A DNA stretch of 23,430 bases, from the IMG/VR virus record IMGVR_UViG_2675903330_000005, positions 1 through 23,430 of that record; one strand, 5' to 3'. Positions 3,911 through 22,496 of the stretch are shown here, one piece after another. The notes beneath the pieces were generated by a model, which worked only from the letters and a program-made list of their open reading frames with translations, did not search any database and was not told the origin of the DNA. The translations under genes were made by a program, and so were the position numbers. Each line of letters starts with the position of its first letter. Positions within the stretch are counted from its first letter, which is position 1. The stretch comes from a virus. Lineage: Duplodnaviria; Heunggongvirae; Uroviricota; Caudoviricetes.

Positions 3911-4764
3911 GCACCATCCTGAAATGGGCGGGTAATAAAACCGCCATTATGTCCGAACTGAAAAAATACCTTCCTGCTGGCCCGCGACTGGTTGAACCTT
4001 TCGCGGGTTCTTGTGCTGTGATGATGGCGACGGATTACCCCAGCTATCTGGTTGCGGATATTAATCCTGATTTAATCAACCTCTATAAAAAGATTGCCGC
4101 TGATTGCGAAGCGTTTATATCTCGTGCCAAAGTTTTATTTGAGGAAGCAAACAGTGAGCTGGCTTATTACAACATAAGACAGGAGTTTAATTACTCAACT
4201 GAAATTACTGATTTCATGAAGGCGATATATTTCCTGTATCTCAATCGTCACGGTTACCGTGGTTTATGTCGCTATAACAAGAGCGGGTATTTCAACATTC
4301 CCTACGGTAATTATAAAAATCCGTATTTCCCTGAAAAAGAAATTCGCGCATTTGCAGAGAAAGCCCAGCGGGCAACGTTTATCTGCGCGAGCTTTGATGA
4401 AACGCTGGCGATGCTGCAGGTGGGGGATGTGGTGTATTGCGATCCGCCGTATGACGGTACGTTTTCCGGCTATCACACTGATGGTTTCACTGAAGATGAC
4501 CAGTATCACCTGGCATCCATTCTTGAACATCGGTCATCAGAAGGACATCCGGTCATTGTTTCTAACAATGACACATCCCTGATTCGTTCGCTGTATCGCA
4601 ATTTTACTCACCACTATATCAAGGCAAAACGCAGCATCGGCGTGTCAGCTGGCGAGGGTAAATCTGCAACAGAAATCATTGCTGTTTCCGGGCCGAGCTG
4701 CTGGTTGGGATTTGATCCTTCGCGTGGCGTGGATAGTTCTGCCGTGTACGGAGTGTGTGTATGA
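3907..4764 (+). CDS. dam: DNA adenine methyltransferase (Dam-like, GATC N6-adenine MTase)
   Basis: N-terminal LKWAGNK and FAGSCAV (AdoMet-binding) motifs plus catalytic DPPY motif (..[11 protein letters not shown]..); start ATGA-overlaps the upstream stop. Confidence 0.9.
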
Positions 4765-7175
4765 GTCATGACGATATGAACAATTGCAGCGGCTTTAACG
4801 AGGCCGCCGCAGCATTTTCATGGAACGGCTCGAAAAAGGCCATTAACCCTTATCTGGACCCGGCGGAAGTTGCGCCGGAGTCTGCACTTTCAAACCTGAT
4901 CACTCTGTACGCTGCCGATAACGAGCAGGAACAACTGCGCCGCGAGGCACTGAGTGAGCAGGTCTGGGAGCGTTATTTCTTTAATGAATCCCGTGATCCT
5001 GTCCAGCGCGAAATGGAGCAGGATAAGCTCATTAGCCGGGCAAAGCTGGCGCATGAGCAGCAGCGTTTTAATCCGGACATGGTCATTCTGGCGGACGTAA
5101 ACGCCCAGCCTTCCCATATCAGCAAGCCGCTGATGCAACGTATTGAATACTTCAGCAGCCTGGGCAGGCCAAAGGCTTATTCCCGCTATTTGCGTGAGAC
5201 GATTAAGCCATGTCTGGAGCGACTGGATTGTGTACGTGACAGTCAGCTATCTGTTTCTTTCCGTTTTATGGCAAGCCATCAAGGGCTGGAGGGTCTGCTG
5301 ATCCTGCCTGAAATGAGCCAGGATCAGGTGAAACGCCTGTCCACCCTGGTAGCAGCGCATATGAGCATGTGTCTTGAGGACGCTTGTGGTGATTTGTATG
5401 CCACCGATGACGTTAAGCCAGAAGAAATCCGCAAGACATGGGAAAAGGTGGCAGCGGAAACCCTGCGTCTGGATGTTATCCCGCCTGCGTTTGAGAAACT
5501 TCGTCGGAAAAGAAACCGCCGCAAACCAGTGCCCTATGAACTCATCCCGGGTTCGCTGGCGCGTATGTTGTGTGCCGACTGGTGGTATCGGAAATTATGG
5601 AAGATGCGTTGCGAATGGCGGGAAGAGCAGTTGCGTGCTGTCTGCCTGGTCAGCAAAAAAGCATCCCCCTATGTCAGCTATGAAGCCGTGATGCATAAAC
5701 GTGAGCAGCGCCGTAAGTCGCTGGAGTTTTTTCGTTCTCATGAACTGGTGAACGAAGACGGCGACACGCTGGATATGGAAGATGTGGTAAACGCCAGCAG
5801 CAGCAACCCGGCGCATCGCCGCAATGAGATGATGGCCTGTGTTAAAGGTCTGGAGCTTATCGCGGAAATGCGCAGTGACTGTGCCGTTTTCTACACTATC
5901 ACCTGTCCGTCGCGTTTCCATTCCACGCTCAATAACGGCAGACCAAACCCGACCTGGACAAACGCGACGGTAAGACAAAGTAGCGATTATCTGGTCGGCA
6001 TGTTTGCTGCATTTCGTAAGGCTATGCATAAAGCCGAGTTGCGCTGGTATGGCGTGCGGGTAGCTGAGCCGCATCATGACGGTACTGTGCACTGGCATCT
6101 CATGTGTTTCATGCGTAAAAAAGACCGCCGCGCCATCACTGCATTACTGCGTAAGTTTGCCATCCGTGAAGACCGCGAGGAGCTGGGCAATAACACGGGA
6201 CCACGCTTTAAGTCTGAGCTGATAAACCCGCGCAAAGGTACGCCAACAAGCTATATCGCGAAATACATCAGTAAGAACATTGACGGGCGTGGTCTGGCTG
6301 GGGAGATCAGCAAGGAAACGGGTAAATCCCTGCGTGATAACGCTGAATACGTTAATGCCTGGGCGTCTCTGCATCGTGTTCAGCAATTCCGCTTCTTTGG
6401 CATTCCGGGGCGTCAGGCTTACCGTGAACTGCGATTGCTGGCTGGTCAGGCGGCAAGGCAACAGGGTGACAAAAAAGCAGGTGCGCCGGTACTGGATAAC
6501 CCGCGCCTTGATGCAATCCTGGCTGCTGCTGATGCTGGTTGTTTTGCCACCTACATCATGAAGCAGGGCGGCGTACTGGTTCCCCGCAAATATCACCTCA
6601 TCAGAACTGCTTATGAAATCAACGAAGAACCGACCGCATATGGCGATCACGGTATTCGTATTTATGGCATCTGGTCACCCATTGCAGAGGGCAAGATCTG
6701 CACTCATGCGGTGAAGTGGAAAATGGTTCGTAAGGCCGTTGACGTTCAGGAGGCGGCAGCCGACCAGGGCGCTTGCGCCCCTTGGACTCGTGGCAATAAC
6801 TGTCCCCTTGCTGAAAATTTGAACCAACAGGAGAAAGATAAATCAACAGATGGGGATCCCAGAACTGACATTACCTGTATGGATGACAAGGAGTTGCACG
6901 ATTACCTGCACAGTATGAGCAAAAAAGAGCGCCAGGAACTGGCAGCAAGATTACGCCTGATGAAACCGAAACGGCGTAAAGACTACAAACAGCGAATTAC
7001 AGAGTATCAGCGTCAGCAGCTCGTCTATGAACTGAAGTCAAGAGGATTTGATGGCAGCGAGAAAGAGGTCGATTTGCTCCTTCGCGGTGGCAGTATTCCG
7101 TCAGGAGCAGGCCTGCGTATCTTCTATCGGAACCAGCGTTTGCAGGAAGATGATAAGTGGCGGAACCTGTATTAA
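4761..7175 (+). CDS. A: Replication initiation endonuclease gpA (HUH rolling-circle initiator)
   Basis: About 804 aa; HUH motif ..[10 protein letters not shown].. and tyrosine pair ..[10 protein letters not shown].. characteristic of P2 gpA; start overlaps dam stop (ATGA). Confidence 0.9.
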
Positions 7176-7266
7176 TCACGTGGGTTAACAATTCGTGCTC
7201 TTAATAATACCAGGCATATCAGGCTGATGAACGTAAAAAACGTTTTACATCAGTAAGATTATTATA

Positions 7267-7286
7267 TACTGTAAATATAAACAGTG
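7267..7286. promoter_or_regulatory. Candidate LexA (SOS) box: TACTGTAAATATAAACAGTG (CTGT-N8-ACAG)
   Basis: Match to the LexA consensus TACTGT(AT)4ACAGTA core, overlapping a -10-like TATAAA/TATACT region about 45 bp upstream of a small ORF with a consensus SD. Confidence 0.55.
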
Positions 7287-7327
7287 GTTGTGCATACAGT
7301 GTTGCTTGTGGTGTCATAGGAGGAAAG

Positions 7328-7498
7328 ATGCAGGACTATTTTTTGGAGTCTTTGAAGCTCCAGCGCATTGATTTTTTTCTTAAGCTTGTGGCGGCTAGTG
7401 AGTGTAGTGATGAAGAGAAGGGGCTGGCTCTGCAGTGGGTTTCTGAGTTGACTGATGAGCTGATGGCGAGAATTCGCGCTCATGAATACAACCACTAG
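7328..7498 (+). CDS. Small 56-aa ORF downstream of the LexA box; candidate SOS-inducible Tum-like antirepressor or small regulator
   Basis: ATG preceded by a perfect AGGAGG SD at optimal spacing; not in the supplied ORF track (under 60 aa); translates to MQDYFLESLKLQRIDFFLKLVAASECSDEEKGLALQWVSELTDELMARIRAHEYNH. Confidence 0.35.
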   Translation: MQDYFLESLKLQRIDFFLKLVAASECSDEEKGLALQWVSELTDELMARIRAHEYNH

Positions 7499-7671
7499 AT
7501 GGATCTTCCCAGTAGTTTTTCGAAACTGAAAACAACCGAGTGAAAGTTACGACACTTGAGATTTTCACTTGGGTTATAATCAGAATACTTGTTTTCGTCC
7601 ACAAATGTACATGCCATGCATTAATGTGGTGATAGCTTTCAATTTTTACTAAATGGTTTCAATTGCTTCTT

Positions 7672-8217
7672 ATGAATCATGTAATGTTAGATATAGAAAC
7701 ATTGGATGTTGAAAAAACAGCTTATATCCTTTCAGTTGGTGCGGCTTTTTTCGTGCCGGAGACTGGCGAGATTGGTCCGGGTTTCTATCAAGTTATTTCG
7801 CTTGATCATGAACAAGCAGGCAGAACCATTGCCCCCTCTACTGTAAAGTGGTGGATGAATCAAAGTACTGAAGCTAAAAACGAAAATTTTGATGGCACTA
7901 AGGACCTTTTAGAGGTTCTGAATGAATTTGTGGCATTTATTCTTCATAATCGTACTGGCCGAGTAAAAGTGTGGGGAAACGGGAAAGAGTTTGACTGCAC
8001 GATCATGCATCATGCCCTGTTACAGGCGGGTCTGGATTGCCCATGGTCATTCAGAGATACTCTTGACGTTAGAACCATCTTAGCACTTGGTGAAAGCAAA
8101 GGAATTTTTTCTCATGCTGATAAAAATTTCACTGGCATTAGGCACACAGCATTCGATGATGTTTTATTTCAGATCGCACAGGTTTCTCACATCTATATGA
8201 ATTTAAATAAAAAATAA
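7672..8217 (+). CDS. DEDDh-type 3'-5' exonuclease (DnaQ-like fold), about 181 aa
   Basis: Exo I motif VMLDIETLD, Exo II-like ..VWGNGKEFDCTIM.., Exo III motif ..HTAFDDVLFQI..; first gene of the AT-rich cargo cassette; start codon uncertain (7663 TTG / 7672 ATG / 7684 ATG). Confidence 0.7.
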   Translation: MNHVMLDIETLDVEKTAYILSVGAAFFVPETGEIGPGFYQVISLDHEQAGRTIAPSTVKWWMNQSTEAKNENFDGTKDLLEVLNEFVAFILHNRTGRVKVWGNGKEFDCTIMHHALLQAGLDCPWSFRDTLDVRTILALGESKGIFSHADKNFTGIRHTAFDDVLFQIAQVSHIYMNLNKK

Positions 8218-8232
8218 ATATAGGACTTAGCT

Positions 8233-9144
8233 ATGGATTGCTTAGATGTAACCTATTGGACTGAGCTAGATGTTTTCGCACAGTATCCTGTTGGTGCTCG
8301 CTCTAAGGCATTGGTTATTTCCCCTGATGTTGCCCCCCATGGTATCAAAGCATCGTGGCCGTATCTTTTTAAGAGAAGCATTAAAAAATACCCAGATCAA
8401 TTTTGGTGTGAGATCGTTGCCTACAGGATTGGATTGCAGCTTGGTTTTAATGTCCCCAAAGCAGTTCCTTCGTTAAAGACTAATGATTTGGGGCATACGT
8501 TTTGCGGGGCCCTCATTGAGTGGTTTCATCATAAAGATTATGAGAAATTTGCTCCCGCTGGTGATTACTTTGTTCGAAGAGATCCAAATTTTGATCGTGA
8601 GAAAGGAGCTAAGCATTCCATTGAAGGGCTGAGGATTATCGCGAAAGCTCTTAAAGTTGACTATGTTGAGTGGTTGGAGAATATGGCTCTCTTTGACGCA
8701 GTAATAGGTAATACAGATAGACATCAAGAAAACTGGGGGTTTATCTTCTCACCTTTAACCAGCGAGTGTCAGCTTGCACCATTTTTCGATAATGGTACGA
8801 GCTTATGCTACGAACGTTTTCCGGAACATGTTGCTGATTGGACCGATCATAGACTCAGGGAGCATGTTAGCCGGGGAAAGCATCATTTGCGTAAGACTCT
8901 GGGCAAAGATGAGTATCAGAGATTAGGTCATTTAGAGTTAATCAAAGAACTTTGTGATAAAAAAGAAGAATTAAAACAGCGGGTAGCTGAAAGACTGGCT
9001 CGTTTGAACCATGACTTTTGGGACTCAACTTTTGCGGAGTTGACGGAAATAAACTGCCCTGTTCCGCTGACTAGAGAACGTGCTGCATGGATTGTTCGTG
9101 TAACAAACATGCGTATTGAACTGATTAAAGGTGTTACTTCATGA
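8233..9144 (+). CDS. HipA-family serine/threonine kinase, short HipT-like form lacking the HipA N-terminal subdomain
   Basis: P-loop-like ..VGARSKALVIS.. (cf. HipA VAGAQEKTAL), ..WCEIVAYRIGLQLGFNVP.. (cf. HipA YCLLLAKELGLNVP), catalytic loop ..VIGNTDRHQENWGF.. (cf. HipA IGATDGHAKNFS) and Mg-binding ..LAPFFDNGTS.. (cf. HipA LTPFYDIIS); 303 aa. Confidence 0.8.
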   Translation: MDCLDVTYWTELDVFAQYPVGARSKALVISPDVAPHGIKASWPYLFKRSIKKYPDQFWCEIVAYRIGLQLGFNVPKAVPSLKTNDLGHTFCGALIEWFHHKDYEKFAPAGDYFVRRDPNFDREKGAKHSIEGLRIIAKALKVDYVEWLENMALFDAVIGNTDRHQENWGFIFSPLTSECQLAPFFDNGTSLCYERFPEHVADWTDHRLREHVSRGKHHLRKTLGKDEYQRLGHLELIKELCDKKEELKQRVAERLARLNHDFWDSTFAELTEINCPVPLTRERAAWIVRVTNMRIELIKGVTS

Positions 9145-9845
9145 CTATCTTAATAGAAAAAATTCCCATGCCAAGTAGGCTCTTACTGACATGGCAACCG
9201 ACCGACGGCGGCTCTCGCTATGTCGTTGGTGAACTTCTTCAAGATGAGTCTGAAGGCTACGAGTTTAATTATCTTACGGATAGCAAAGATTTTGCTAAAG
9301 CTGTGGATAAAGGCTTTCACGGTTTTCCTGCTTTTGACATAAAAGTTACGACTCATCGCAAAGACGTTATGCAAACCTTTTCAAGAAGGTTACCCTCTAG
9401 GAAAAGAGAAGATTTTGCCGATTACTTGCTGACGTTTCGTCTTCCTGCTGATTTTAGAGAGAATGACTTCGTTTTGCTCGCTTGTACTGGCGGAAAAGTG
9501 GCTAGTGATGGTTTTTATTTTGTCCCAGACTTGTCTTCTATTCGGCCACCTTTTGATTATGTCATGGAGGTCGCCGGAACGAGACACATGATTAAGGAAG
9601 GGCGTCTAGCTCTTGACGAGATATCAATTGGTGATGAAGTCATATTGCGCAATGAAGATACCAATACTGTTGATCCGCTGGCCATATTAGTAACGAAAAA
9701 CGACAATCATCTAGGATATGTCAACAAGGCATTGTGCGCCGCATTACGAGATCTTGGTAAAAACCATGATATCAGTGGAGTGGTCGTACGTAAAAATGGC
9801 TCTTCGGATAGGCCTTTGATTTATGCAAAAGTATCTGTTAGATGA
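9141..9845 (+). CDS. Two-domain protein: N-terminal HipA-N-subdomain-like (HipS-like) region fused to a C-terminal HIRAN-like domain
   Basis: N-term ..LLLTWQPTDGGSRYVVGELLQDESEGYEFNY.. resembles the HipA N-terminus (..LVTWMNNQRVGELTKLANGAHTFKY..); C-term ..DEVILRNEDTNTVDPLAILVTKNDNHLGYVNKALCAAL.. fits the HIRAN pattern; start ATGA-overlaps the kinase stop. Confidence 0.55.
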   Translation: MTILIEKIPMPSRLLLTWQPTDGGSRYVVGELLQDESEGYEFNYLTDSKDFAKAVDKGFHGFPAFDIKVTTHRKDVMQTFSRRLPSRKREDFADYLLTFRLPADFRENDFVLLACTGGKVASDGFYFVPDLSSIRPPFDYVMEVAGTRHMIKEGRLALDEISIGDEVILRNEDTNTVDPLAILVTKNDNHLGYVNKALCAALRDLGKNHDISGVVVRKNGSSDRPLIYAKVSVR

Positions 9846-10013
9846 TGCATGTTTATTCATGCTTGCTAGTGATACTGCATTTATAGAGTCTGTCAACTAT
9901 GGAGATTTTTTCGTCTCATGCAACTACATTAAATTACCATTAAGTGGGTTGACGTTGCGGGGGAAGCATTACACGTCAGTATTGGTGCGTCTGAAGTGTC
10001 ATGCCGAAAAGGT

Positions 10014-10121
10014 ATGAAAAAGCCGCTTGGTAACATAACTATTCGCAATGATGTTGTAGGAAGCGAACTGGAAATGATAGCAATGGATGCTGTTGATGTA
10101 GTGTATGTCTATGCTGCATGA
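10014..10121 (+). CDS. Possible 35-aa micro-ORF (MKKPLGNITIRNDVVGSELEMIAMDAVDVVYVYAA) at the 3' end of the cassette
   Basis: ATG with an AAAGG SD-like sequence upstream; ends about 35 bp before the intrinsic terminator; weak support. Confidence 0.2.
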   Translation: MKKPLGNITIRNDVVGSELEMIAMDAVDVVYVYAA

Positions 10122-10155
10122 GTTTGCATGAACGTTTGAGGCTCGTTTTTGTTAA

Positions 10156-10181
10156 GGCCCGCCAGAACTGGCGGGCTTTTG
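10156..10181 (+). terminator. Rho-independent terminator closing the cargo cassette
   Basis: GC-rich inverted repeat GCCCGCC-agaact-GGCGGGC followed by TTTTG. Confidence 0.6.
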
Positions 10182-10225
10182 CTCATGTCATGCAGGTGCA
10201 TGAAAACCACTACATAAAGCGGGCA

Positions 10226-10244
10226 GGCGTGGCGGGGATACGAG
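10226..10244. other. Candidate cos site (19-nt cohesive end): GGCGTGGCGGGGATACGAG followed by CGCGCGC
   Basis: Matches the P2 cohesive end GGCGAGGCGGGGAAAGCAC at 14 of 19 positions and the 186 sequence as I recall it at about 15 of 19; lies between the post-gpA cargo region and gene Q, where cos sits in P2. Confidence 0.6.
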
Positions 10245-10305
10245 CGCGCGCAAACATGTTTACTTGCAATTAATGTAGATATATTCTGAAATTGATAACT
10301 TACAC

Positions 10306-10515
10306 ATGAAAGGAGACGTGAGAGTGGCAAAATATACACCGGGCCAGAAAGTAAAACATGCAACAGGACATGGTCCAATCATGGTAATTGATCACTACCA
10401 ATCGGCTACAATGGCAGTTTGTACGTGGTTTATTGGTGCTAAGAACCAGCGCGGAGTTTTTCATGAAGATACTCTAGTTTTATTTGTTCCAAAAGCTGAG
10501 AGTGATGATGAATGA
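10306..10515 (+). CDS. YodC/DUF2158-like small protein; start may be GTG at 10324 (63 aa)
   Basis: ..KYTPGQKVKHATGHGPIMVI....GVFHEDTLV.. resembles E. coli YodC (..GGPRMIV....EAFHETELV..); AGGAG SD 8 nt upstream of GTG 10324. Confidence 0.55.
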   Translation: MKGDVRVAKYTPGQKVKHATGHGPIMVIDHYQSATMAVCTWFIGAKNQRGVFHEDTLVLFVPKAESDDE

Positions 10516-10774
10516 TTCTCTGATAAAAATAGTTGACTGGATGGTTAATACCACTCGTTCTAATGGTGTGTTGTATCAGTCCGAGGTTGTTGAATTTCTA
10601 ATCAATGACTTTGGGGACGAGTTCATCAAAACTAATGAGAATGGTAATTACGCTATAAGCAGTACTGTGCTAGCAAATTTTAGAAAGGCTAGCAAAGACG
10701 ATATAGTTTGGGATCGTGAACAGTTAGCTTGGCGTTTACGCAATGAAAGCGATTTACCCGGACGGATGCAGTAG
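10508..10774 (+). CDS. Hypothetical 89-aa protein, overlapping the upstream small gene's stop
   Basis: ORF whose ATG (10505/10508) overlaps the stop of the YodC-like gene; no recognisable motif. Confidence 0.4.
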   Translation: MNDSLIKIVDWMVNTTRSNGVLYQSEVVEFLINDFGDEFIKTNENGNYAISSTVLANFRKASKDDIVWDREQLAWRLRNESDLPGRMQ

Positions 10775-10790
10775 AGATAATACAGAGAAT

Positions 10791-10831
10791 AGTGAACAAG
10801 CTGATAATTTCAACTTGTTCACTTCTTTTTT
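10791..10831. terminator. Hairpin terminator between the convergent small-gene pair and gene Q (possibly bidirectional)
   Basis: Perfect 10-bp inverted repeat AGTGAACAAG...CTTGTTCACT with 13-nt loop, followed by TCTTTTTT on the + strand. Confidence 0.5.
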
Positions 10832-11873
10832 ATGACTGATTATTTTCTAAGCCATAATATTCAAATTTGACTACCTCTTCATCTAACCATTCATTAATTT
10901 CGGCAATGCGTTTTTGTAAAGGCATCAGTTCATTCCGAACAAATACCCGGCTGGCTTTCTCCACATCCCCAAACCCCCCTACATTATTAGGCATAATCCC
11001 CATCATCTGCGGCGGCACTCGGTGTGCTGCCATCATGTCGTCCCGGCTCACGTTCTTGATATTCAGAAACTCATCCTTCGCCGCGACTTCTGACAACGGG
11101 ATGATCTGAAGCCCGTCCTTTTTGCCGTTAGGCGAGTACATAAACAGATTGCGGAAGTTACCTGGTCCTTTGGCGCTTTTCATCGCATTGCGGAGGTTGT
11201 TCACATCCTCCTGGTTTTGCGCGGCATCGGTCATGTACATGATGAAGCCTGCATGACTGCCGTTAATGTAATACTTTCGACGGAACAGCGTGGCGGACTC
11301 GTTGAGCAGGGCAGACGGAATGGCAGAAAGATAACCGGGCAGGCCGTAGATCTCCTGATTAATATCCGGTTCCATTAGATGAAAAATGCTGCCTTTCGTG
11401 AACTGATACGGCTGGGTTGTCATACCGTATTGCACAAACCAGTAGGTATCCAGGTCTAACCCGCGTCGGGTGTATTTTGCCAGCGCAGGCTCAAGGGCGA
11501 TAACTTCACCGAATCGGTTCGTGCGTTTCTCCAGGTAGGCGTTACCAAATACCAGATAGTCCTGCACAAAACGCGAAAAAGCCTGCTGGCTGAGCAGCGG
11601 GTGAGGGATATAGGTGCTGGTCAGAATGTTGCACTTTACTGCAATCGGTGAGCTGTGGTGAACGGCGGCGCGGAATGTTCGCGCCAGTCCGTCAAAACTT
11701 ACGGGTGGCTCATACCAGCGATCCGTCTGTACGCATTCCACATAGTCCAGCAGTTCGCGGCGGTCAAGTACTGGAATGGGATCACCGAAGCTGAATGCTT
11801 CGGCTGAAGTTTGGCTTTTATGCTTGAGCTGATTCGTCGCCGCAGCGCGGTTTTTCTTACTCTTTCCCATCAA
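10830..11873 (-). CDS. Q: Capsid portal protein gpQ
   Basis: 347 aa, leftward, ATGA-coupled to P; position and size match P2 Q. Confidence 0.9.
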   Translation of the reverse strand: MMGKSKKNRAAATNQLKHKSQTSAEAFSFGDPIPVLDRRELLDYVECVQTDRWYEPPVSFDGLARTFRAAVHHSSPIAVKCNILTSTYIPHPLLSQQAFSRFVQDYLVFGNAYLEKRTNRFGEVIALEPALAKYTRRGLDLDTYWFVQYGMTTQPYQFTKGSIFHLMEPDINQEIYGLPGYLSAIPSALLNESATLFRRKYYINGSHAGFIMYMTDAAQNQEDVNNLRNAMKSAKGPGNFRNLFMYSPNGKKDGLQIIPLSEVAAKDEFLNIKNVSRDDMMAAHRVPPQMMGIMPNNVGGFGDVEKASRVFVRNELMPLQKRIAEINEWLDEEVVKFEYYGLENNQS

Positions 11874-13636
11874 AAAATCTCCACAATATTGCTGGTATTG
11901 GCGGACTCGCCCTGCAGCGGTTCGTTAAACAGTGCGTGCATCGTTGCCCAGGCCAGATCGGCGTGGCTGGCTTCTTCGCTGCGGCTGGCTTCATAGGTCG
12001 GGCGGTTGCCACTGGCGGTGGTGGCGCGACGGATTGCCATAAATGACTGCGCTATGTCGGTGTGTCCGGCGTCAAACTCCAGACGACGGTGACTGATAAT
12101 GTCGTAGGCTTTGAGTACCAGGGCGTTTTTAACGTTGGGGTTGTAGACAAACTCCCGGACGGCAGGAAAGAACGCTTTCACGTTCTCGTAAACCCCGTGA
12201 CCGACACCTGTCGAGTCGATGCCGATATAGGTCACGTTGTACTGTTCGGTCAGTTTTTTGATGGCGTCAGCCTGGGCGCGGAAGTCCATCCCGCGCCACT
12301 GGTGACGCTCAAGAATGCGAAACTTACCGCCTGGCACGGCTGGCGGTGCCACCACCACGCATCCGGCGCTGTCGCCGTTCTGCGTACCTTTTGCCGGGTC
12401 ATAACCGATCCACACCTCGCGCCAGCCAAACGGGCGCAGGGCCAGTGCATGAAAGTCGGTCCAGACTTCCCAACTGTCCACCATGCACGCCTGCAGTTCG
12501 CTGAGCGGGAACACGGACGCGAGATCGTCCACGAACTCGCACATCAGCAGGTTCTGGTATTCGTCCGGGCTGTACTCCATGCGTAGCTGGTCGAGGTCGA
12601 ACAGGTTACAGCCGCCGCGCACCGCATCTTCCACGGTGACTATCTGGCGGTATTGCCCGTCTGCGCACAGCAGGCCGGGGGCCAGATTGCTGTGGGACAG
12701 GTCGATGTCCACCTTGTCGGCTTTGTTGCGTCCACGGTTGAACAGCGCACCGGACCAGAACGGATAAGCACTGTGTGTCAGGCTGGATGGCGTGGAAAAA
12801 TAGGTTTGTCGCCATTTTTTGTGAATAGCCATACCGGAAGCCACTTTGCGCAGCTCCTGAAATTTCGGTATCCAGAAATATTCATCCAGATACAGGTTGC
12901 CGTGATAACTCTGGGCAGTGCGGGCATTGGTGCCGAGGAAGTAAAGCGTGGCACCGTTAGGAAGCACCATCGGATCACCTTTCAGCTCCACCTCCACTTC
13001 TTTGGCGAAGTCGATGATGTACTGCTTAAAGACGTGGGCCTGTGCCTTGCTGGCGGAAAGGAAAATCTGGTTACGTCCGGTCAGCAGGGCGTCAATCAGG
13101 GCTTCACGGGCAAAATAGAAGGTTGCGCCGATCTGGCGTGACTTCAGCAGGTTGCGGATGCGGTTGGTTTTTCCGGCTTCCCACCAGTGGCGCTGGTAGT
13201 TGAACATGGAGGAATGGAAGATTTCTTCCAGCTTCTCAATCTGTTCATCGGTGAAAACATTCTTTTCCGGCTGACGGCGTGGGCCTTTGTTGCGGTTGGC
13301 GACGTTAGGGTTTAAGTCGGCTTCGTTGCCGCCATTGTTAAACTTGCCGATCCGCGCGTGGCGCTCCGACTGGCGCGCCAGCAGGTCAATCTCTTTGAAA
13401 TCTTTCCCTTCTTTGTGCTCCTTCATAATGAGCTGGCAGTAGCGTGCGGCGGTGGTGAGCTGCATCTGATCCAGCGGCCCATAGTCACCCCACTTGTCGC
13501 GTTTTTTCCAGCTGTGAACGGTTGCAACTTTCTCGCCCAGCATTTCAGCAATGCGGGCGACGCGGTATCCCTGAAAGTACAGCAGCATGGCCTGCCGACG
13601 GGGATCGAGATCTGCGGGTGTCAGTGTGGTGTTCAT
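11870..13636 (-). CDS. P: Terminase large (ATPase) subunit gpP
   Basis: 588 aa (P2 P is about 590 aa); divergent from the O-N-M-L operon as in P2. Confidence 0.9.
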   Translation of the reverse strand: MNTTLTPADLDPRRQAMLLYFQGYRVARIAEMLGEKVATVHSWKKRDKWGDYGPLDQMQLTTAARYCQLIMKEHKEGKDFKEIDLLARQSERHARIGKFNNGGNEADLNPNVANRNKGPRRQPEKNVFTDEQIEKLEEIFHSSMFNYQRHWWEAGKTNRIRNLLKSRQIGATFYFAREALIDALLTGRNQIFLSASKAQAHVFKQYIIDFAKEVEVELKGDPMVLPNGATLYFLGTNARTAQSYHGNLYLDEYFWIPKFQELRKVASGMAIHKKWRQTYFSTPSSLTHSAYPFWSGALFNRGRNKADKVDIDLSHSNLAPGLLCADGQYRQIVTVEDAVRGGCNLFDLDQLRMEYSPDEYQNLLMCEFVDDLASVFPLSELQACMVDSWEVWTDFHALALRPFGWREVWIGYDPAKGTQNGDSAGCVVVAPPAVPGGKFRILERHQWRGMDFRAQADAIKKLTEQYNVTYIGIDSTGVGHGVYENVKAFFPAVREFVYNPNVKNALVLKAYDIISHRRLEFDAGHTDIAQSFMAIRRATTASGNRPTYEASRSEEASHADLAWATMHALFNEPLQGESANTSNIVEIF

Positions 13637-17107: not shown

Positions 17108-17323
17108 ATGACGCTTGAGCGAATCAGCGCCTTTATCACGTACTGCATCGCCGTTGTGCTGGCCTGGCTGGGCGATTTGTCCATCAAGGATGCCTCAACG
17201 CTGGGCGGCCTGATGATTGGTGTGCTGATGCTGGCTATCAACTGGTACTACAAACACAAAGCCTACCAGCTTCTGCGCGACGGGCAGATCTCGCGGGAGG
17301 ACTATGAATCCATCAATCGTTAA
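17108..17323 (+). CDS. Y: Holin (P2 gpY position), 71 aa with two hydrophobic segments
   Basis: Membrane-spanning segments ..ISAFITYCIAVVLAWLG.. and ..LGGLMIGVLMLAINWYY.. and a charged C-terminus, directly upstream of the lysozyme. Confidence 0.65.
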   Translation: MTLERISAFITYCIAVVLAWLGDLSIKDASTLGGLMIGVLMLAINWYYKHKAYQLLRDGQISREDYESINR

Positions 17324-17930
17324 ACGCTGCCTTGTCGGGGCCGTGCTGGCTATTGCTGCCACGCTGCCGGGTTTTCAGCAGCTTCACACCTCCGTGGAGG
17401 GGCTGAAACTGATTGCCGATTACGAAGGCTGTCGTCTGCAGCCGTATCAGTGCAGCGCGGGTGTCTGGACCGACGGCATTGGTAATACATCTGGCGTCAT
17501 TCCAGGCAAAACCATTACGGAACGACAGGCAGCGGAAGGGCTGATCTCCAACGTGCTACGTGTGGAGCGGGCGCTGGAAAGATGTGTGAAGCAACAGCCG
17601 CCACAAAAGGTGTATGACTCGGTGGTGTCGTTTGCCTTCAACGTGGGAACGGGCAATGCCTGCAGTTCCACGCTGGTGAAATTACTCAATCAGCGGCGCT
17701 GGGCGGATGCGTGCCGACAGTTGCCGCGCTGGGTTTATGTAAAAGGTGTGTTTAATCAGGGGCTGGATAGGTGCTCTGCTCAGTCCGATAGGTCTTGTGG
17801 TTACTGCACTGGCGGGCGTGGCGCTGGTTGTCTGGAAATACTGGCAACCCATCACCGCATTTCTCGGTGGCGTGGTGGAAGGATTCAAAGCGGCGGCAGG
17901 TCCCATCAGTGCAGCGTTCGAACCGCTTAA
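17304..17930 (+). pseudogene. K: Endolysin gpK (lysozyme family), 3'-truncated at a deletion junction near 17760; ORF continues out of register into tape-measure DNA
   Basis: N-terminal roughly 150 aa look like a phage lysozyme (..EGLKLIADYEGCRLQPYQCSAGVWTDGIGNT..); the distal roughly 55 aa are low-complexity read-through overlapping the T fragment in another frame. Confidence 0.7.
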
Positions 17931-18687
17931 GCCCGTGTTCCAGTGGATTGGCGACAAAGTGCAGGCGCTGTGGGGCTGGTTTACTGATCTGCTGACGCCC
18001 GTTAAGTCGACCTCTGCCGAACTGCAGAGCGCAGCGGCAATGGGGCGGCGATTCGGGGAGGCACTGGCGGAAGGGCTGAATATGGTCATGCATCCGCTGG
18101 ACTCCCTGAAATCCGGCGTTTCCTGGTTGCTGGAGAAGCTCGGCATTGTCAGTAAAGAGGCCGCAAAGGCAAAACTGCCGGAAAGCGTGACGCGTCAGCA
18201 ACCTGCGACGGTGAATGCAGACGGTAAAGTGATGATGCCATCGGGTGGTTTTCCATCATGGGGATATGGCTTTGCGGGGATGTATGACAGCGGCGGGTAT
18301 ATCCCGCGCGGGCAGTTTGGCATCGTCGGTGAAAACGGGCCGGAAATTGTTAACGGCCCGGCAAATGTGACCAGCCGGAGAAATACAGCTGCACTGGCTG
18401 CCGTTGTTGCCGGAATGATGGGCGTTGCTGCCGCGCCAGCAGAGCTTCCACCGTTGCACCCTTTGGCACTTCCCGCGAAAGGTGGAGAAGCAATTGTGAG
18501 TCGCGCAGCCACTGTGCCGCTCGTTCAACGGATTGAGGCACCGACGCAGATCATCATTCAGACGCAGCCAGGACAAAGTGCGCAGGATATTGCGCGGGAG
18601 GTGGCACGCCAGCTTGATGAACGTGAACGCAGGCTGAAGGCAAAAGCCAGGAGTAACTACAGCGATCAGGGGGGATACGACGCATGA
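17746..18687 (+). pseudogene. T: Tape-measure protein gpT, C-terminal fragment only (about 310 of about 800 aa); 5' part removed by the deletion
   Basis: Hydrophobic TMP-like segment GWIGALLSPIGLVVTALAGVALVVW and C-terminal ..GGYIPRGQFGIVGENGPEIVNGP..; stop overlaps the U start; no credible start or SD. Confidence 0.8.
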
Positions 18688-19169
18688 TGATGGTGCTGGG
18701 ATTGTACGTGTTTATGCTGCGCACCGTTCCGTATCAGGAACTGCAGTATCAACGCAGCTGGCGACATGCGGCAAACAGTCGGGTAAACCGACGTCCGTCC
18801 ACGCAGTTTCTGGGACCGGAAAACGACATGCTGACGCTTTCCGGTGTTCTTATGCCGGAAATAACAGGCGGCAGGCTGTCGTTGCTGGCACTGGAGCAGA
18901 TGGCAGAACAGGGGAAAGCATGGCCCCTGATTGAAGGCAGCGGCACGATTTACGGCATGTATGTGATTGAGGGACTGAATCAGACTAAAACGGAGTTTTT
19001 CCGCGATGGTATGCCGCGCCGGATTGAGTTCACCCTGTCGCTCAAACGGGTGGATGAATCCCTGTCCGATATGTTCGGTGATCTCAGTGCGCAGCTGAAT
19101 AATTTGCAGGATACGACAACGTCTGCCTTAAGCGATATCAGTAAAACGGTGGGAGGGCTGCTGTCGTGA
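18684..19169 (+). CDS. U: Tail protein gpU
   Basis: 161 aa (P2 U is about 159 aa), between T and D. Confidence 0.85.
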   Translation: MMMVLGLYVFMLRTVPYQELQYQRSWRHAANSRVNRRPSTQFLGPENDMLTLSGVLMPEITGGRLSLLALEQMAEQGKAWPLIEGSGTIYGMYVIEGLNQTKTEFFRDGMPRRIEFTLSLKRVDESLSDMFGDLSAQLNNLQDTTTSALSDISKTVGGLLS

Positions 19170-20266
19170 ATTTCAGCTCTGAACTGCTTAACAAAGGCAA
19201 CAAAACTCCGGCATTCAGCATCAGTATTGAGGGTAAGGATATCACCACTGTGCTGGATAACCGCCTGATGAGTCTGACGCTGACGGACAATCGGGGCTTT
19301 GAAGCGGACCAGCTTGATCTGGAGCTGGATGACGCCGACGGAAAAATCGTGCTGCCGCGCCGTGGTGCGGTCATTACGCTGGCGTTGGGCTGGAAGGGGC
19401 AGTCGCTTTTCCCGAAAGGAGCATTCACGGTGGACGAGATTGAACACACTGGCGCACCGGACCGCCTGACTATCCGGGCGCGAAGTGCTGATTTTCGTGA
19501 AACCCTGAATACCCGCCGTGAAAAATCGTGGCACAAGACCACCGTTGGGGAAGTGGTGAAGGAAATAGCTGCGCGGCACAAACTGAAGATGGCATTGGGT
19601 GAAGACCTGTCGGATAAACCTGTGGAGCATATAGACCAGACCAATGAGAGTGACGGCAGTTTTCTGATGCGGCTGGCGCGCCAGTACGGTGCTATTGCGT
19701 CGGTGAAAAATGGCAATCTGTTATTCATCCGGCAGGGACAGGGTAAAAGCGCCAGCGGTAAACCACTACCGGTTATCACTATCACACGTAAGGACGGCGA
19801 CAGTCACCGCTTTACCCTGGCAGATCGCGGAGCCTACACGGGCGTAATTGCCAGCTGGTTGCATACCCGCGAACCCGCGAAGAAAGAAAGCACCACGGTG
19901 AAGCGTAAGCGCAGGACTAAGAAGCAGAAGAAAGAGCCGGAAGCGAAGCAGGGCGATTACCTGGTGGGTACAGATGAAAACGTGCTGGTACTTAATCGCA
20001 CCTATGCCAACCGGAGCAACGCCGAACGGGCGGCGAAAATGCAGTGGGAACGCCTGCAACGTGGCGTTGCGTCATTCTCGCTACAACTGGCAGAAGGTCG
20101 GGCGGATCTCTACACGGAAATGCCAGTGAAAGTCAGAGGCTTTAAACAGCCGATAGATGATGCGGAATGGACTATTACCACCCTGACGCATACTGTCAAT
20201 CCGGATAACGGTTTTACGACCAGTCTGGAGCTTGAAGTGAAGATTAATGATTTCGAAATGGAATGA
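19166..20266 (+). CDS. D: Tail protein gpD (late control gene D)
   Basis: 366 aa; GTG start with GGGAGGG SD; follows U and precedes ogr as in P2. Confidence 0.85.
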   Translation: MNFSSELLNKGNKTPAFSISIEGKDITTVLDNRLMSLTLTDNRGFEADQLDLELDDADGKIVLPRRGAVITLALGWKGQSLFPKGAFTVDEIEHTGAPDRLTIRARSADFRETLNTRREKSWHKTTVGEVVKEIAARHKLKMALGEDLSDKPVEHIDQTNESDGSFLMRLARQYGAIASVKNGNLLFIRQGQGKSASGKPLPVITITRKDGDSHRFTLADRGAYTGVIASWLHTREPAKKESTTVKRKRRTKKQKKEPEAKQGDYLVGTDENVLVLNRTYANRSNAERAAKMQWERLQRGVASFSLQLAEGRADLYTEMPVKVRGFKQPIDDAEWTITTLTHTVNPDNGFTTSLELEVKINDFEME

Positions 20267-20652: not shown

Positions 20653-20698
20653 AACAAAAAACCCATCAACCTTGAACCGAAATGGCGGGGTTGATGGG
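20653..20698 (-). terminator. Rho-independent terminator read on the minus strand (likely the ybjL terminator)
   Basis: Perfect 10-bp inverted repeat CCCATCAACC / GGTTGATGGG with 17-nt loop, preceded on + by AACAAAAAA (a U-run on the minus strand). Confidence 0.5.
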
Positions 20699-20810
20699 CT
20701 CCACAAAATGGGGACATCAAAGAAAAGCAGTGGCACTAATTAAGACTGATGCCCTGCGGAAAAGTTCTGCGGTTGTGCAAAAAAATTTCATTTTCAGGGC
20801 AACTTCAGTT

Positions 20811-22496
20811 TTATCCTAATCCTGGCCATACCATGACGATGATTGTCCCTGCCAGCGTCAGCAGGACGTTGGCGATTGCATAGGTGCCCGCATAGCCCAG
20901 CGCCGGGATGTTACTGCGAGCTGTATCACTGATGATCTCCATTGCCGGCGCGCAGGTACGTGCGCCCATCATTGCGCCGAACAACAGCGCGCGGTTCATT
21001 CGCAATACATAAGCACCGAACAAGAAACAGATAACCACGGGCACCAGACTGACAATCAATCCGGCAATCAACATCTGACCGCCAATCGCGCCCAGGCCGT
21101 TATTAATACCGCTACCGGCGCTCAGACCAACGCCTGCCATAAACACCATCAAGCCGAACTCTTTCACCATGCTTAATGCACCCTGCGGAATGTAACCGAA
21201 GGTCGGGTGGTTAGCACGCATAAAGCCCAGCATAATTCCGGCGAATAACAACCCGGCAGCGTTCCCCATGCCGAAACTGAATGTGCTGAACTGGAAGGTG
21301 ATCATCCCGATCATCAGCCCAATAACAAAGAAGGCGCAGAATGCCAGCAGGTCAGTGACCTGGCTGTGAATCGAGATAAAGCCGATGCGATCGGCGATGG
21401 TTTTTACGCGGCGGGCATCGCCGCTGACTTGTAAAACGTCACCTTTGTTAAGCACGACGTTGTCATCTATCGGCATCTCAATCTGGCTACGAATGACGCG
21501 GTTAAGGAAGCAACCGTGATCGGTCAACTTCAGTTGTGCGAGACGTTTACCTACAGCGTTATGGTTTTTAACGACCACTTCTTCAGTGACGATACGCATG
21601 TCGAGAAGGTCACGATCGAAAACTTCTTTACCGTTACGGAAGCTGGGATCGAGTCGGGCATGGGCGTCGGGATAGCCTACCAACGCTATTTCATCGCCCA
21701 TTTGTAGCACGGCATCACCGTCTGGATTTGCCAGAATCCCGTTACGTCGAATACGTTCAATGTAGCAGCCGGTTTGTCGATAAATACCCAGTTCACGCAG
21801 ATTTTTGCCGTCGGTCCAGGCCACCAGTTCCGGGCCGACGCGATAGGCGCGGATCACCGGTAAATAAACCTTACGGTTGGCATCAGTGTCCAGGCCACGT
21901 TCGCGGGCGATTTGCTGGGCGCTGGTCTGTAAGTCCTGATGCTGCAATTTCGGCAAGTAACGCGCACCAACAATCAAACTCACCAGACCGATTAAATAGG
22001 TTAAGGCATACCCGAGGCTCAGATTATCCAGTGCCAGTGAGAGCTGCCTGCTTTCCATGCCGGAATGACGCAGTGTATCGCCAGCACCGACCAGAACCGG
22101 TGTCGACGTCATAGAGCCTGCTAACATACCGGCCGTCAGGCCAATATCCCAGCCAAACAGCTTACCTAACCCTAAGGCGATCACCAGCGCACTGCCAACC
22201 ATCACCAGTGCTAACATTAGGTAATTTTTCCCATCGCGAAAAAAAATGGAAAAAAAGTTCGGTCCGGCTTCGACCCCGACGCAGAAAATAAACAGCATAA
22301 AGCCAAGATTAAGCGCATCGGTGTTAATGCTGAAATGTTGTTGGCCTAATAACAGCGATACGACTAAAACGCCAATGGAATTACCCAGTTGGATCGAACC
22401 AAGTCGTAACTTTCCGAGACATAGCCCAAGCGCGAGGACCACAAATAATAACAGAATGTAATTCCCATTTAACAATTCGGCGACGTTTATATTCAC
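20811..22496 (-). CDS. ybjL: Putative transport protein YbjL (AAE-family transporter with central TrkA-C/RCK_C-like domains)
   Basis: 561-aa polytopic membrane protein with the duplicated-transporter architecture of E. coli YbjL; conserved neighbourhood with ybjM and grxA. Confidence 0.9.

What the first reader, a model, noticed from the sequence alone, without database searches (positions are those of the whole stretch)
9141..9845. HipA-N-like (HipS-like) domain fused to a HIRAN domain and translationally coupled to the kinase
The N-terminal roughly 90 aa carry the W-x(n)-VGEL ... F-x-Y ... LP signature of the HipA N-terminal subdomain. The C-terminal roughly 90 aa (DEVILRNEDTNTVDPLAILVTKNDNHLGYVNKALCAAL) fit the HIRAN pattern. 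I am not aware of a described HipS-like/HIRAN fusion. It would physically link kinase regulation to recognition of DNA 3' ends or stalled replication intermediates.
Basis: inference. Interest (0 to 1): 0.8.

Follow-up and report, generated by a model that had tools for sequence, protein, structure and literature searches.

The report
Known hipIN kinase module in prophage
The gene really does encode a HipS-like domain fused to a HIRAN DNA-end-binding domain and overlaps a HipA-type kinase gene, but this pair was already described in 2021 as the "hipIN" module and is a listed candidate phage-defence system whose function has never been shown.

Summary

The novelty claim is wrong. Gerdes et al. 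2021 named this architecture HipN, the putative antitoxin of hipIN modules, and proposed the same DNA-end-sensing idea. PADLOC lists the pair as candidate PDC-M03. Rousset et al. 2022 catalogued this exact cassette, with the same RefSeq proteins, in the P2-phage defence hotspot between gpA and gpQ, which is where it sits here. They cloned a fused sister variant and listed it only among "additional tested systems", not among validated defences.

Three smaller points are added here:
- An Rv2179c-like 3'-5' exonuclease gene directly upstream marks one well-supported clade of these modules.
- Single-chain kinase-HipS-HIRAN fusions arose once inside that clade.
- The DNA 3'-OH-binding residues of HIRAN are strongly conserved.

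Function is still untested. The most likely reading is a kinase switch held off by the HipS-like domain and released when HIRAN binds DNA 3' ends.

The parts
7684..8217 (+). Rv2179c-like (formerly DUF5051) DEDDh 3'-5' exonuclease gene. It is the first gene of the cassette and a lineage-specific accessory. The longest ORF starts at a TTG at 7663; RefSeq uses the ATG at 7684.
   Evidence: Pfam PF16473, E 5.1e-50, full length; phrog_255 'exonuclease'. The D-x-E, D and H-x4-D motifs are visible in the sequence and in the alignment to the TA255 homologue. RefSeq names it WP_050515810 '3'-5' exonuclease'. It lies directly upstream of the kinase in 28 of 47 homologous loci, and those loci form one clade (bootstrap 100/100).
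8233..9144 (+). HipI-type short HipA-family Ser/Thr kinase (303 aa), the putative toxin/effector. It lacks HipA N-subdomain-1.
   Evidence: Pfam HipA_C, E 3.6e-10, above cutoff. PADLOC PDC-M03A, E 4e-36. Best match among solved structures by sequence is CtkA, E 2.7e-6. hhalign to E. coli HipA aligns D162, N167 and D186 with D309, N314 and D332.
8287..8307 (+). Gly-rich (P-) loop of the kinase, residues 19-25 (P-V-G-A-R-S-K), only about 20 residues from the N terminus.
   Evidence: G21 and R23 are invariant, and P19 and K25 are conserved in at least 90% of 10 kinases taken from divergent loci. Gerdes et al. describe this N-terminal position of the loop as typical of short Hip kinases.
8716..8733 (+). 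Catalytic loop of the kinase, D162-R-H-Q-E-N167.
   Evidence: D162, R163, H164, Q165 and N167 are invariant. The loop aligns with HipA D309...N314.
8788..8796 (+). Mg-binding D186-N-G motif of the kinase.
   Evidence: The stretch F185-D-N-G-T-S-L191 is invariant. D186 aligns with HipA D332.
9128..9133 (+). Shine-Dalgarno-like AAGGTG inside the 3' end of the kinase gene, 7 nt before the hipN ATG.
   Evidence: Read directly from the sequence.
9141..9144 (+). ATGA overlap: the hipN start codon and the kinase stop codon share bases, indicating translational coupling.
   Evidence: Read directly from the sequence. Overlaps are conserved in homologous loci. In 18 of 47 loci the junction has become an in-frame fusion.
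9141..9845 (+). hipN: 234-aa two-domain protein, the putative antitoxin/sensor. This is the finding itself. It is identical to WP_021563624, annotated 'HIRAN domain-containing protein'.
   Evidence: PADLOC PDC-M03B, E 9.5e-37, full length. phrog_8026, E 3.6e-80. 80 full-length homologues. 706 representatives at 50% identity among 1.84 billion proteins. AlphaFold2 pLDDT 94.5, pTM 0.90.
9168..9539 (+). HipS-like domain (about residues 10-133), with the fold of HipA N-subdomain-1 / Couple_hipA.
9546..9842 (+). HIRAN domain (about residues 136-234).

Best explanation
This is a hipIN-type module in the sense of Gerdes et al. 2021, equivalent to PADLOC candidate PDC-M03. It is carried as low-GC cargo in the anti-phage hotspot of a P2-like prophage, between the replication gene gpA and the portal gene gpQ.

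Gene 8233-9144 encodes a short HipA-family kinase with all catalytic motifs intact. The overlapping gene 9141-9845 encodes HipN.

Proposed mechanism:
1. [quoted passage not shown]
2. [quoted passage not shown] It binds free DNA 3'-OH ends or short 3'-OH DNA produced during phage infection or DNA damage.
3. That binding relieves inhibition allosterically.
4. The kinase then phosphorylates an essential host factor, by analogy an aminoacyl-tRNA synthetase, and stops growth. This is abortive infection.

In this enterobacterial clade an Rv2179c-like 3'-5' exonuclease encoded 15 nt upstream probably belongs to the same operon and acts on the same kind of substrate, 3' ends, either clearing or generating the HIRAN ligand.

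Shown here: the domain identities, the gene coupling, the intact catalytic and pocket residues, the obligatory pairing, the natural fusions and the hotspot location. Inferred: inhibition by the HipS-like domain, DNA-end sensing, the kinase target, the defence phenotype and the role of the exonuclease.
For: - Identity of the parts.
- Obligatory pairing: a HipA-type kinase lies immediately upstream of the HipN homologue in 47 of 47 loci, with overlapping reading frames.
- Rosetta-stone evidence: in 18 of 47 loci the two genes are one ORF. phrog_26212 (547 positions) matches the kinase at positions 5-307 and HipN at 320-546. The representative search also returned fused proteins of 547 and 538 aa.
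- The kinase is predicted to be active: Gly-rich loop, K47, D162/H164/N167 and D186 are invariant and align to HipA D309/N314/D332.
- Precedent for inhibition: HipS blocks HipT by inserting Glu63 and Trp65 beside the Gly-rich loop, and W65A loses antitoxin activity (PMC10627512).
- The HIRAN pocket is constrained. The equivalent of HLTF D94, which reads the 3'-OH (PMC5773155), is D or E in 36 of 37 sequences. R71, N91, H110 and K113 equivalents are conserved in 35 to 37 of 37.
- pTM of 0.90 for the two-domain protein suggests a fixed arrangement of the domains.
- Defence context: the gpA-gpQ interval is a validated anti-phage hotspot (PMC9122126). The flanks occur in 1281 of 5426 E. coli genomes but this cargo in only 5. 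GC is 39-43% against 53-59% in the flanks. Distant homologues sit next to a type ISP restriction enzyme, Fic and EVE genes and satellite-like elements.
- Gerdes et al. proposed the same model.
- Exonuclease link: it is present in 28 of 47 loci, which form one clade (bootstrap 100/100) despite kinase identity as low as about 40%. In the stored part of Rousset's P2 table DUF5051 occurs 31 times, and every passage shown pairs it with HIRAN. In Actinomycetes and Clostridia, an unrelated NrnC-type DEDD nuclease (diDNase) sits next to HipA + HIRAN genes in about a third of cases (PMC11706625).
Against: - No experiment on any hipIN or hipL module was found.
- The closest tested relative is pFR108 'Exonuclease + HipA' from E. 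coli TA255. It is 41%, 42% and 51% identical in the exonuclease, kinase and HipS-like parts, and is fused. It appears only in Rousset's Table S2B of 'additional tested systems', not among the validated defences, after testing against eight phages.
- The HipS Trp65 plug could not be mapped onto HipN, and sequence similarity to HipS/HipA-N is marginal.
- In HipA itself the homologous N-subdomain is part of an active enzyme rather than an inhibitor.
- The two tyrosines that pinch the 3' bases in HLTF are replaced: Y72 by His in 28 of 37 sequences, and Y93 by Val in 24 of 37. DNA-end binding is therefore not guaranteed.
- No promoter or terminator signal above chance defines the operon.
- The exonuclease is absent from the 19 loci outside this clade, and those loci share no third gene. 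It is not a core part, and its retention could be simple co-inheritance.
Confidence: 0.55

Rival explanations
1. It is a classical type II toxin-antitoxin (addiction) module that stabilises the prophage. HipN is a labile antitoxin, and its HIRAN domain serves as the DNA-binding part for operon autoregulation, replacing the HipB helix-turn-helix repressor. There is no phage sensing.
For: The Hip family is the archetype of kinase TA modules. The cassette has no HTH gene, so some other DNA-binding domain would be needed for autoregulation. The genes are translationally coupled, as in TA operons. The module is retained here in a prophage that has lost its tail genes. The tested sister cassette gave no validated defence.
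Against: Known HIRAN domains read DNA 3' ends, not operator sequences, and it is the 3'-OH-contact residues that are conserved. In 18 of 47 loci 'toxin' and 'antitoxin' are one polypeptide. That is incompatible with differential antitoxin decay and points to an allosteric switch instead. The location is a cargo slot enriched for defence genes.
Confidence: 0.15
2. HipN is not an inhibitor. It is the missing N-subdomain of the kinase supplied in trans, plus a targeting domain. The HipS-like domain completes the HipA fold and HIRAN recruits the active kinase to DNA 3' ends or replication forks. There it phosphorylates DNA-associated phage or host proteins, and the exonuclease works at the same ends.
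Against: The only split precedent, HipS-HipT, is inhibitory. A constitutively active HipA-type kinase would be expected to be toxic, yet the cassette is carried stably. No DNA-bound kinase substrate is known for any Hip kinase.
Confidence: 0.17
3. The cassette serves the P2-like phage's own life cycle, for example processing of replication intermediates or host takeover, rather than immunity. The HIRAN protein and exonuclease would act on phage rolling-circle or cos-end DNA, and the kinase would modulate host physiology.
For: It lies beside the replication gene gpA and the cos-proximal region. Rv2179c-like exonucleases are common phage genes (phrog_255). No defence phenotype has been reported for the sister cassette.
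Against: It is present in only 5 (split) plus 61 (fused) of about 1280 E. coli genomes with this prophage slot. It is therefore dispensable, swappable cargo rather than a life-cycle function. Homologous pairs occur outside phages in chromosomal islands. It is also retained in a prophage that can no longer make tails.
Confidence: 0.08

Closest known systems
hipIN modules: HipI kinase + HipN (Gerdes, Baerentsen & Brodersen, mBio 2021)
   Same: Same gene order (kinase first). Short kinase lacking N-subdomain-1, with the Gly-rich loop near the N terminus. [quoted passage not shown] The hypothesis is also the same: HIRAN senses DNA ends, the kinase is activated, abortive infection follows.
   Different: Gerdes et al. 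analysed only 14 hipIN modules. In what was read, they did not report the P2-hotspot location or an associated exonuclease. Placement of this kinase in their HipI subclade was not tested here. The module has no experimental characterisation.
HipL, and 'Exonuclease + HipA' (pFR108) from the P2 hotspot of E. coli TA255 (Rousset et al. 2022, Table S2B)
   Same: Same hotspot and same gene order (exonuclease, kinase, HipS-like, HIRAN). The parts are colinear at 41%, 42% and 51% identity. The two belong to the same exonuclease-bearing clade.
   Different: There the kinase and HipN are a single polypeptide; here they are split by an ATGA overlap. The fused form is in 61 of 5426 complete E. coli genomes and the split form in 5. 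The fused form was cloned and tested but is listed only among non-validated systems.
HipBST of E. coli O127:H6 and Legionella (HipS antitoxin, HipT kinase, HipB)
   Different: The gene order is reversed: hipS precedes hipT, whereas here the kinase comes first. There is no HipB/HTH gene here. HipN carries an extra HIRAN domain. Sequence similarity to HipS is undetectable with HMMER. The Trp65 equivalent was not identified.
PADLOC phage-defence candidate PDC-M03
   Same: Both proteins match its HMMs over their full length: M03A at 4e-36 and M03B at 9.5e-37. A 2026 paper describes it as a HipA-domain protein plus a HIRAN-domain protein, 2/2 genes.
   Different: PDC-M03 is a two-gene candidate without an exonuclease. 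It is a prediction, not a validated system.
diDNase-HipA-HIRAN gene clusters of Actinomycetes and Clostridia (Mortensen et al., NAR 2025)
   Same: A DEDD-superfamily 3'-5' nuclease gene directly beside a HipA-domain gene and a HIRAN-domain gene, on mobile elements and near defence genes.
   Different: Those nucleases are NrnC-type dimeric deoxydinucleotidases. The one here is Rv2179c-like (PF16473) with no detectable NrnC similarity. The hosts are Gram-positive. The association is therefore parallel, not shared by descent as far as tested.
HIRAN domains of HLTF/Rad5 and Lp_0118
   Different: The base-pinching Y72 and Y93 are His and Val here. The domain is attached to a kinase-regulating domain rather than to a SWI/SNF helicase or RING.

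Membership tests
hipIN module (Gerdes et al. 2021) | Short kinase (279-321 aa) containing only the core kinase domain and lacking HipA N-subdomain-1, so that the Gly-rich loop lies near the N terminus | tested here: met
   The kinase is 303 aa. Its only Pfam hit is HipA_C. The Gly-rich loop is at residues 19-25, compared with about 150-158 in E. coli HipA.
hipIN module (Gerdes et al. 2021) | Conserved core Hip kinase motifs (Gly-rich loop, catalytic loop, Mg-binding Asp) | tested here: met
   G21, R23, K47, D162, H164, N167 and D186 are invariant in 10 divergent kinases. D162, N167 and D186 align to HipA D309, N314 and D332. The activation-loop motif was not examined separately.
hipIN module (Gerdes et al. 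2021) | [quoted passage not shown] | tested here: met
   The pairing holds in 47 of 47 homologous loci.
hipIN module (Gerdes et al. 2021) | [quoted passage not shown] | not tested
   No reference HipI sequences were available; the supplements held as text do not contain this protein. In my own tree the split and fused (HipL-like) forms of the P2 hotspot are one clade, so the HipI/HipL boundary is fluid in this lineage.
hipIN module (Gerdes et al. 2021) | The kinase is toxic and HipN neutralises it | not testable with these tools
   This needs expression experiments. Gerdes et al. list no experimentally analysed module for clade XI.
HIRAN domain (Pfam PF08797) | Sequence match above the curated threshold | tested here: met
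   31.0 bits against a cutoff of 24.7, E 2.3e-7. 37 of 37 homologues match.
HIRAN domain (Pfam PF08797) | HIRAN beta-barrel fold | tested here: met
   [not shown]
HIRAN domain (Pfam PF08797) | Residues that read the DNA 3' end (HLTF D94 for the 3'-OH; Y72 and Y93 pinching the last two bases) | tested here: inconclusive
   The D94 equivalent (D178) is D or E in 36 of 37 sequences. R71, N91, H110 and K113 equivalents are conserved. Y72 is replaced by His (28) or Tyr (8), and Y93 by Val (24), Phe (8) or Ile (2).
HIRAN domain (Pfam PF08797) | Binds DNA 3'-OH ends | not testable with these tools
   This needs EMSA or fluorescence polarisation with purified protein.
HipS / Couple_hipA (HipA N-subdomain-1) | Sequence match to Couple_hipA (PF13657) | tested here: not met
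   The window protein has no hit at E <= 1. Only 11 of 37 homologues give weak hits, best E 1.4e-3. hhalign to HipA 1-167 aligns 21 columns at probability 2%. The family profile finds no HipS or HipA sequence in the PDB.
HipS / Couple_hipA (HipA N-subdomain-1) | Same three-dimensional fold as HipS and HipA N-subdomain-1 | tested here: met
   [not shown]
HipS / Couple_hipA (HipA N-subdomain-1) | Inhibitory Glu63/Trp65 wedge that enters the kinase pocket beside the Gly-rich loop | tested here: inconclusive
   No residue-level superposition was available, so the equivalent could not be assigned. The candidates are the invariant coil G58-F59-x-G-F-P63-A-F65 and the R83-L-P-x-R-x-R89-x-D-F92 motif.
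HipBST tripartite system | A third gene encoding the HipB helix-turn-helix protein, with hipS upstream of hipT | tested here: not met
   No HTH protein is present in 7300-10800. The gene order is kinase first, then the HipS-like gene.
HipL (single-chain kinase-HipS-like-HIRAN) | All three domains in one polypeptide | tested here: not met
   A stop codon at 9142-9144 and a frame change separate the two ORFs. The fused relatives form a separate subclade (98/100).
PADLOC PDC-M03 | Adjacent genes matching the PDC-M03A and PDC-M03B HMMs | tested here: met
   E 4.1e-36 and 9.5e-37, both full length.
Validated anti-phage defence system | Protects cells against at least one phage | not testable with these tools
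   No report was found for the split form. The fused sister pFR108 appears only in the table of additional tested systems, not the validated ones.
diDNase-HipA-HIRAN cluster (Mortensen et al. 2025) | The adjacent nuclease is an NrnC-type dimeric deoxydinucleotidase | tested here: not met
   The nuclease is Rv2179c-like (PF16473, 5e-50). It has no PF01612/NrnC hit and no sequence match to NrnC or diDNase structures.

The most novel reading that the evidence does not exclude
The unit in this clade is a three-part DNA-end-sensing kinase switch, not a two-gene TA pair. The DEDD 3'-5' exonuclease controls the level of the HIRAN ligand, which would be free 3'-OH ends or very short 3'-OH DNA; the HIRAN pocket holds just the last two nucleotides. 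This sets the threshold at which the HipS-like domain releases the kinase. DEDD nucleases would then have been recruited to HipA + HIRAN pairs twice independently: Rv2179c-like enzymes in enterobacterial P2-type phages, and NrnC-type deoxydinucleotidases in Actinomycetes and Clostridia. That would point to short DNA degradation products as an infection signal.
Probability: 0.25. Interest if true: 0.65.

Novelty: already known. Interest (0 to 1): 0.3.

Why it matters
The fusion is not a discovery. It has a name (HipN), PADLOC HMMs (PDC-M03B), a RefSeq entry and a row in a published hotspot catalogue.

What is still open is its function. No hipIN or hipL module has been characterised. The one cloned relative was not validated as a defence. 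It is not known what a HIRAN domain senses in bacteria.

If HIRAN does couple DNA 3'-end recognition to a HipA-type kinase, this would be a compact nucleic-acid sensor wired to a translation-arresting kinase. The recurrent DEDD exonuclease partner would suggest that DNA breakdown products act as the alarm signal.

The split and fused variants at one E. coli hotspot give a ready-made pair for testing whether regulation is allosteric or depends on antitoxin decay.

Tried and rejected
- Sequence searches for the N-terminal half led nowhere. phmmer and a family profile against all PDB sequences found only HIRAN entries. Pfam and NCBIfam gave nothing for the window protein. hhalign to HipA 1-167 gave only the 21-column VGEL...FxY match. 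The HipS-like call rests on the predicted structure.
- Literature searches for an experimental test of hipIN, HipN, HipL or PDC-M03 returned noise or only bioinformatic mentions. 'HIRAN' hits in two defence papers were the author name Hirano.
- The PADLOC web-server paper does not define the PDC labels.
- I asked whether the exonuclease is one of the published NrnC-type diDNases. It is not: the Pfam family differs and there is no PDB sequence match.
- I looked for another conserved third gene in the 19 loci without the exonuclease. Only mobile-element genes recur.
- The promoter and terminator scan of 7150-10900 gave no promoters above the shuffled expectation. The terminator-like sites, although more numerous than in the shuffles, do not mark the operon ends, so the operon limits are undefined.
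- No Rfam family and no convincing small ORF lies in 9846-10300.
- A kinase-HipN complex could not be modelled. The structure tool predicts single chains and returns no coordinates or contacts, so I ran no further search on a fused homologue.
- A first tree script timed out. It was rerun with a faster distance calculation.
- The Kile et al. 2015 HIRAN paper is not held. A review was used for the residue roles instead.
Full report
**What is there.** ORF 9141-9845 (+, 234 aa) starts with an ATG that shares bases with the TGA stop of ORF 8233-9144 (+, 303 aa), giving an ATGA junction. An AAGGTG Shine-Dalgarno-like site lies 7 nt upstream. A third ORF, 7663/7684-8217, ends 15 nt before the 303-aa ORF.

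Pfam assigns the three proteins as follows:
- 7684-8217: Rv2179c-like 3'-5' exonuclease, E 5e-50.
- 8233-9144: HipA_C kinase, E 3.6e-10.
- 9141-9845: HIRAN, E 2.3e-7, residues 140-218, above the gathering score.

PADLOC matches the last two over their full length to the candidate defence pair PDC-M03A and PDC-M03B, at 4e-36 and 9.5e-37.

**Checking the two domain calls.** I aligned the target with 36 homologues of 36-95% identity. An AlphaFold2 model built from that alignment is very confident (pLDDT 94.5, pTM 0.90).

By sequence the N-terminal similarity is marginal. Only 11 of 37 homologues give weak Couple_hipA hits. The domains are about 125 and 100 residues rather than 90 and 90.

**It is already described.** Gerdes, Baerentsen and Brodersen (mBio 2021) defined hipIN modules. 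[quoted passage not shown] They also defined HipL, the single-chain kinase-HipS-like-HIRAN version. They proposed that HIRAN recognises DNA ends of invading phages, which activates the kinase and triggers abortive infection. Their data set held 14 hipIN and 14 hipL modules out of 1,239, none of them studied experimentally.

Rousset et al. (Cell Host Microbe 2022) showed that the interval between gpA and gpQ of P2-like phages is an anti-phage hotspot. Their Table S5A lists 'DUF5051 + HipA_C + HIRAN' with WP_050515810, WP_021523856 and WP_021563624. Those are the same RefSeq proteins that annotate the 99.9%-identical locus in E. coli DS26-1.

**Context.** The window is a P2-like prophage. Its gene order is integrase, CI, gpA (4755-7175), the cassette, then portal and terminase on the minus strand (10830-13636).

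The flanks of the cassette occur in 1281 of 5426 complete E. coli genomes, but the cassette itself in only 5. Other strains carry different cargo at the same place. The cargo is 39-43% GC against 53-59% in the flanks.

**How the pair behaves across relatives.** An exhaustive search finds 706 representatives at 50% identity with E <= 1e-3, and 62 with E <= 1e-30. Among the best 150, nearly all are full-length two-domain proteins of 225-255 aa.

In 47 loci that encode a homologue (13 from assemblies and E. coli genomes, 34 from IMG/VR), a HipA-type kinase lies immediately upstream in all 47. In 18 of them kinase and HipN are one ORF. phrog_26212 is that fused form; the kinase matches its positions 5-307 and HipN matches 320-546.

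The kinase family keeps the Gly-rich loop (G21, R23, K25), K47, D162-R-H-Q-x-N167 and D186-N-G invariant. These align with HipA D309, N314 and D332, so it should be an active enzyme.

In the HIRAN half, the residue equivalent to HLTF D94, which reads the 3'-OH, is D or E in 36 of 37 sequences. The equivalents of R71, N91, H110 and K113 are conserved in 35 to 37 of 37. The base-pinching Y72 and Y93 are mostly His and Val.

**The exonuclease.** The Rv2179c-like gene is directly upstream of the kinase in 28 of the 47 loci. These comprise all 18 fused loci and 10 split loci, nearly all in gpA-portal contexts.

I built a neighbour-joining tree of concatenated kinase + HipN from 32 non-redundant loci. 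The exonuclease-bearing loci form one clade (bootstrap 100/100). The fused forms are a single subclade nested within it (98/100). The window's module groups with the Yersinia ruckeri one, outside the fused subclade. The exonuclease was therefore acquired once and retained while the kinase diverged to about 40% identity. With midpoint rooting, the fusion arose once from a split ancestor.

The 19 loci outside this clade have no conserved third gene.

Independently, Mortensen et al. (NAR 2025) found that about one third of NrnC-type deoxydinucleotidase genes in Actinomycetes and Clostridia sit next to HipA-domain and HIRAN-domain genes. The enzyme here belongs to a different DEDD family. Two different 3'-5' DEDD nucleases therefore accompany HipA + HIRAN pairs in distant bacteria. 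Rv2179c itself is RNase T-like and trims 3' single-stranded overhangs.

**Experimental status.** Rousset et al. cloned 'Exonuclease + HipA' (pFR108, E. coli TA255) from this hotspot. Its second protein is the fused kinase-HipS-like-HIRAN form. It is 42% identical to the window's kinase and 51% to the HipS-like part, and its exonuclease is 41% identical.

pFR108 is listed in Table S2B, 'additional tested systems', while validated systems are in Table S2A. The three newly validated P2 systems named in the text are different ones. The construct used the native promoter on a low-copy plasmid and was tested against eight phages.

The annotated start of its second protein lacks the Gly-rich loop. 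In homologous fused loci the reading frame is open from the kinase N terminus, so the cloned insert probably held the whole gene.

That fused variant is in 61 of 5426 complete E. coli genomes.

[quoted passage not shown] That binding releases the kinase, which then phosphorylates an essential factor.

The natural fusions argue for an allosteric switch rather than decay of a labile antitoxin. The exonuclease may clear or create the 3'-OH ligand.

The rivals are:
- a plain addiction module, with HIRAN acting in autoregulation;
- HipN as an activating and targeting subunit, since the same fold is part of active HipA;
- a role in the phage's own life cycle.

None of these is excluded by computation. 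The lack of a validated phenotype for pFR108 weighs against a simple broad-spectrum defence.

**Verdict.** The item is an already described, experimentally uncharacterised module. The only modest additions here are the monophyletic exonuclease association, the single origin of the fused forms within it, the conservation of the 3'-OH-binding pocket, and the frequency figures.

Noticed in passing
window 7663/7684-8217 (+): An Rv2179c-like (DUF5051) DEDDh 3'-5' exonuclease gene lies 15 nt upstream of the kinase. It accompanies the module in 28 of 47 loci, which form one clade (100/100). This parallels the published link between NrnC-type diDNases and HipA + HIRAN genes in Gram-positive bacteria, but it involves a different DEDD family.
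   Followed up: yes
window 20653-20731 (-), 20811-22496 (-), 22766-23143 (+): A full-length RybB sRNA (Rfam RF00110, 105 bits) is followed by a ybjL-type transporter gene and ybjM. The prophage therefore ends at about 20.6 kb, beside the chromosomal rybB locus, which may be its attachment site.
   Followed up: partly
window 17304-20266: The prophage looks defective. After the lysozyme gene (17304-17930) comes a 313-aa ORF with no Pfam hit (17746-18687), then gpU and gpD. The block of tail, baseplate, fibre, sheath and tube genes expected in P2 is missing, a deletion of roughly 12 kb. IMG/VR contigs with the identical cassette are 30-38 kb and appear complete.
   Followed up: partly
window 7200-10800: The hotspot cargo is 39-43% GC against 53-59% in the flanking phage genes, consistent with horizontally acquired cargo.
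   Followed up: partly
window 10306-10515 and 10484-10774 (+): Two small overlapping genes (a weak DUF2158-like match and DUF6953) lie between the cassette and the portal gene. RefSeq annotates the same pair next to unrelated cargo in other strains, so they belong to the conserved hotspot flank and not to this system.
   Followed up: partly
window 10791-10823: A strong hairpin (14-bp stem) lies between the convergent DUF6953 and portal genes. It is terminator-like on the minus strand.
   Followed up: no
window 7328-7498 (+): A small conserved gene (56 aa, phrog_698, WP_021523854) sits at the gpA side of the hotspot. The DinI-like gene found at this position in many other P2-like prophages is absent here.
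   Followed up: no
L001 12073-14498 (E. coli DS26-1): In strain DS26-1 an IS66-family element (ISEc47) is inserted about 0.5 kb downstream of hipN. It is absent from the window.
   Followed up: no
Rousset et al. 2022, Table S5A (same gpA-gpQ hotspot in other E. coli strains): Another cargo type reads 'DarT + hypothetical + HIRAN + Macro' (HIRAN protein WP_000185757). Stand-alone HIRAN proteins therefore also accompany the DNA-ADP-ribosylating DarTG toxin-antitoxin system, which suggests HIRAN is a recurrent DNA-sensing module in hotspot cargo.
   Followed up: no
Rousset et al. 2022, Table S2B, pFR108 protein 2; loci L021-L026: The annotated start of the fused kinase-HipS-like-HIRAN protein (MLWSPNDAPEG...) corresponds to residue 27 of the window's kinase and omits the Gly-rich loop. 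In the homologous loci the frame is open, and aligns, from kinase residue 1. The annotated start is probably too far downstream.
   Followed up: partly
[not shown]
   Followed up: no
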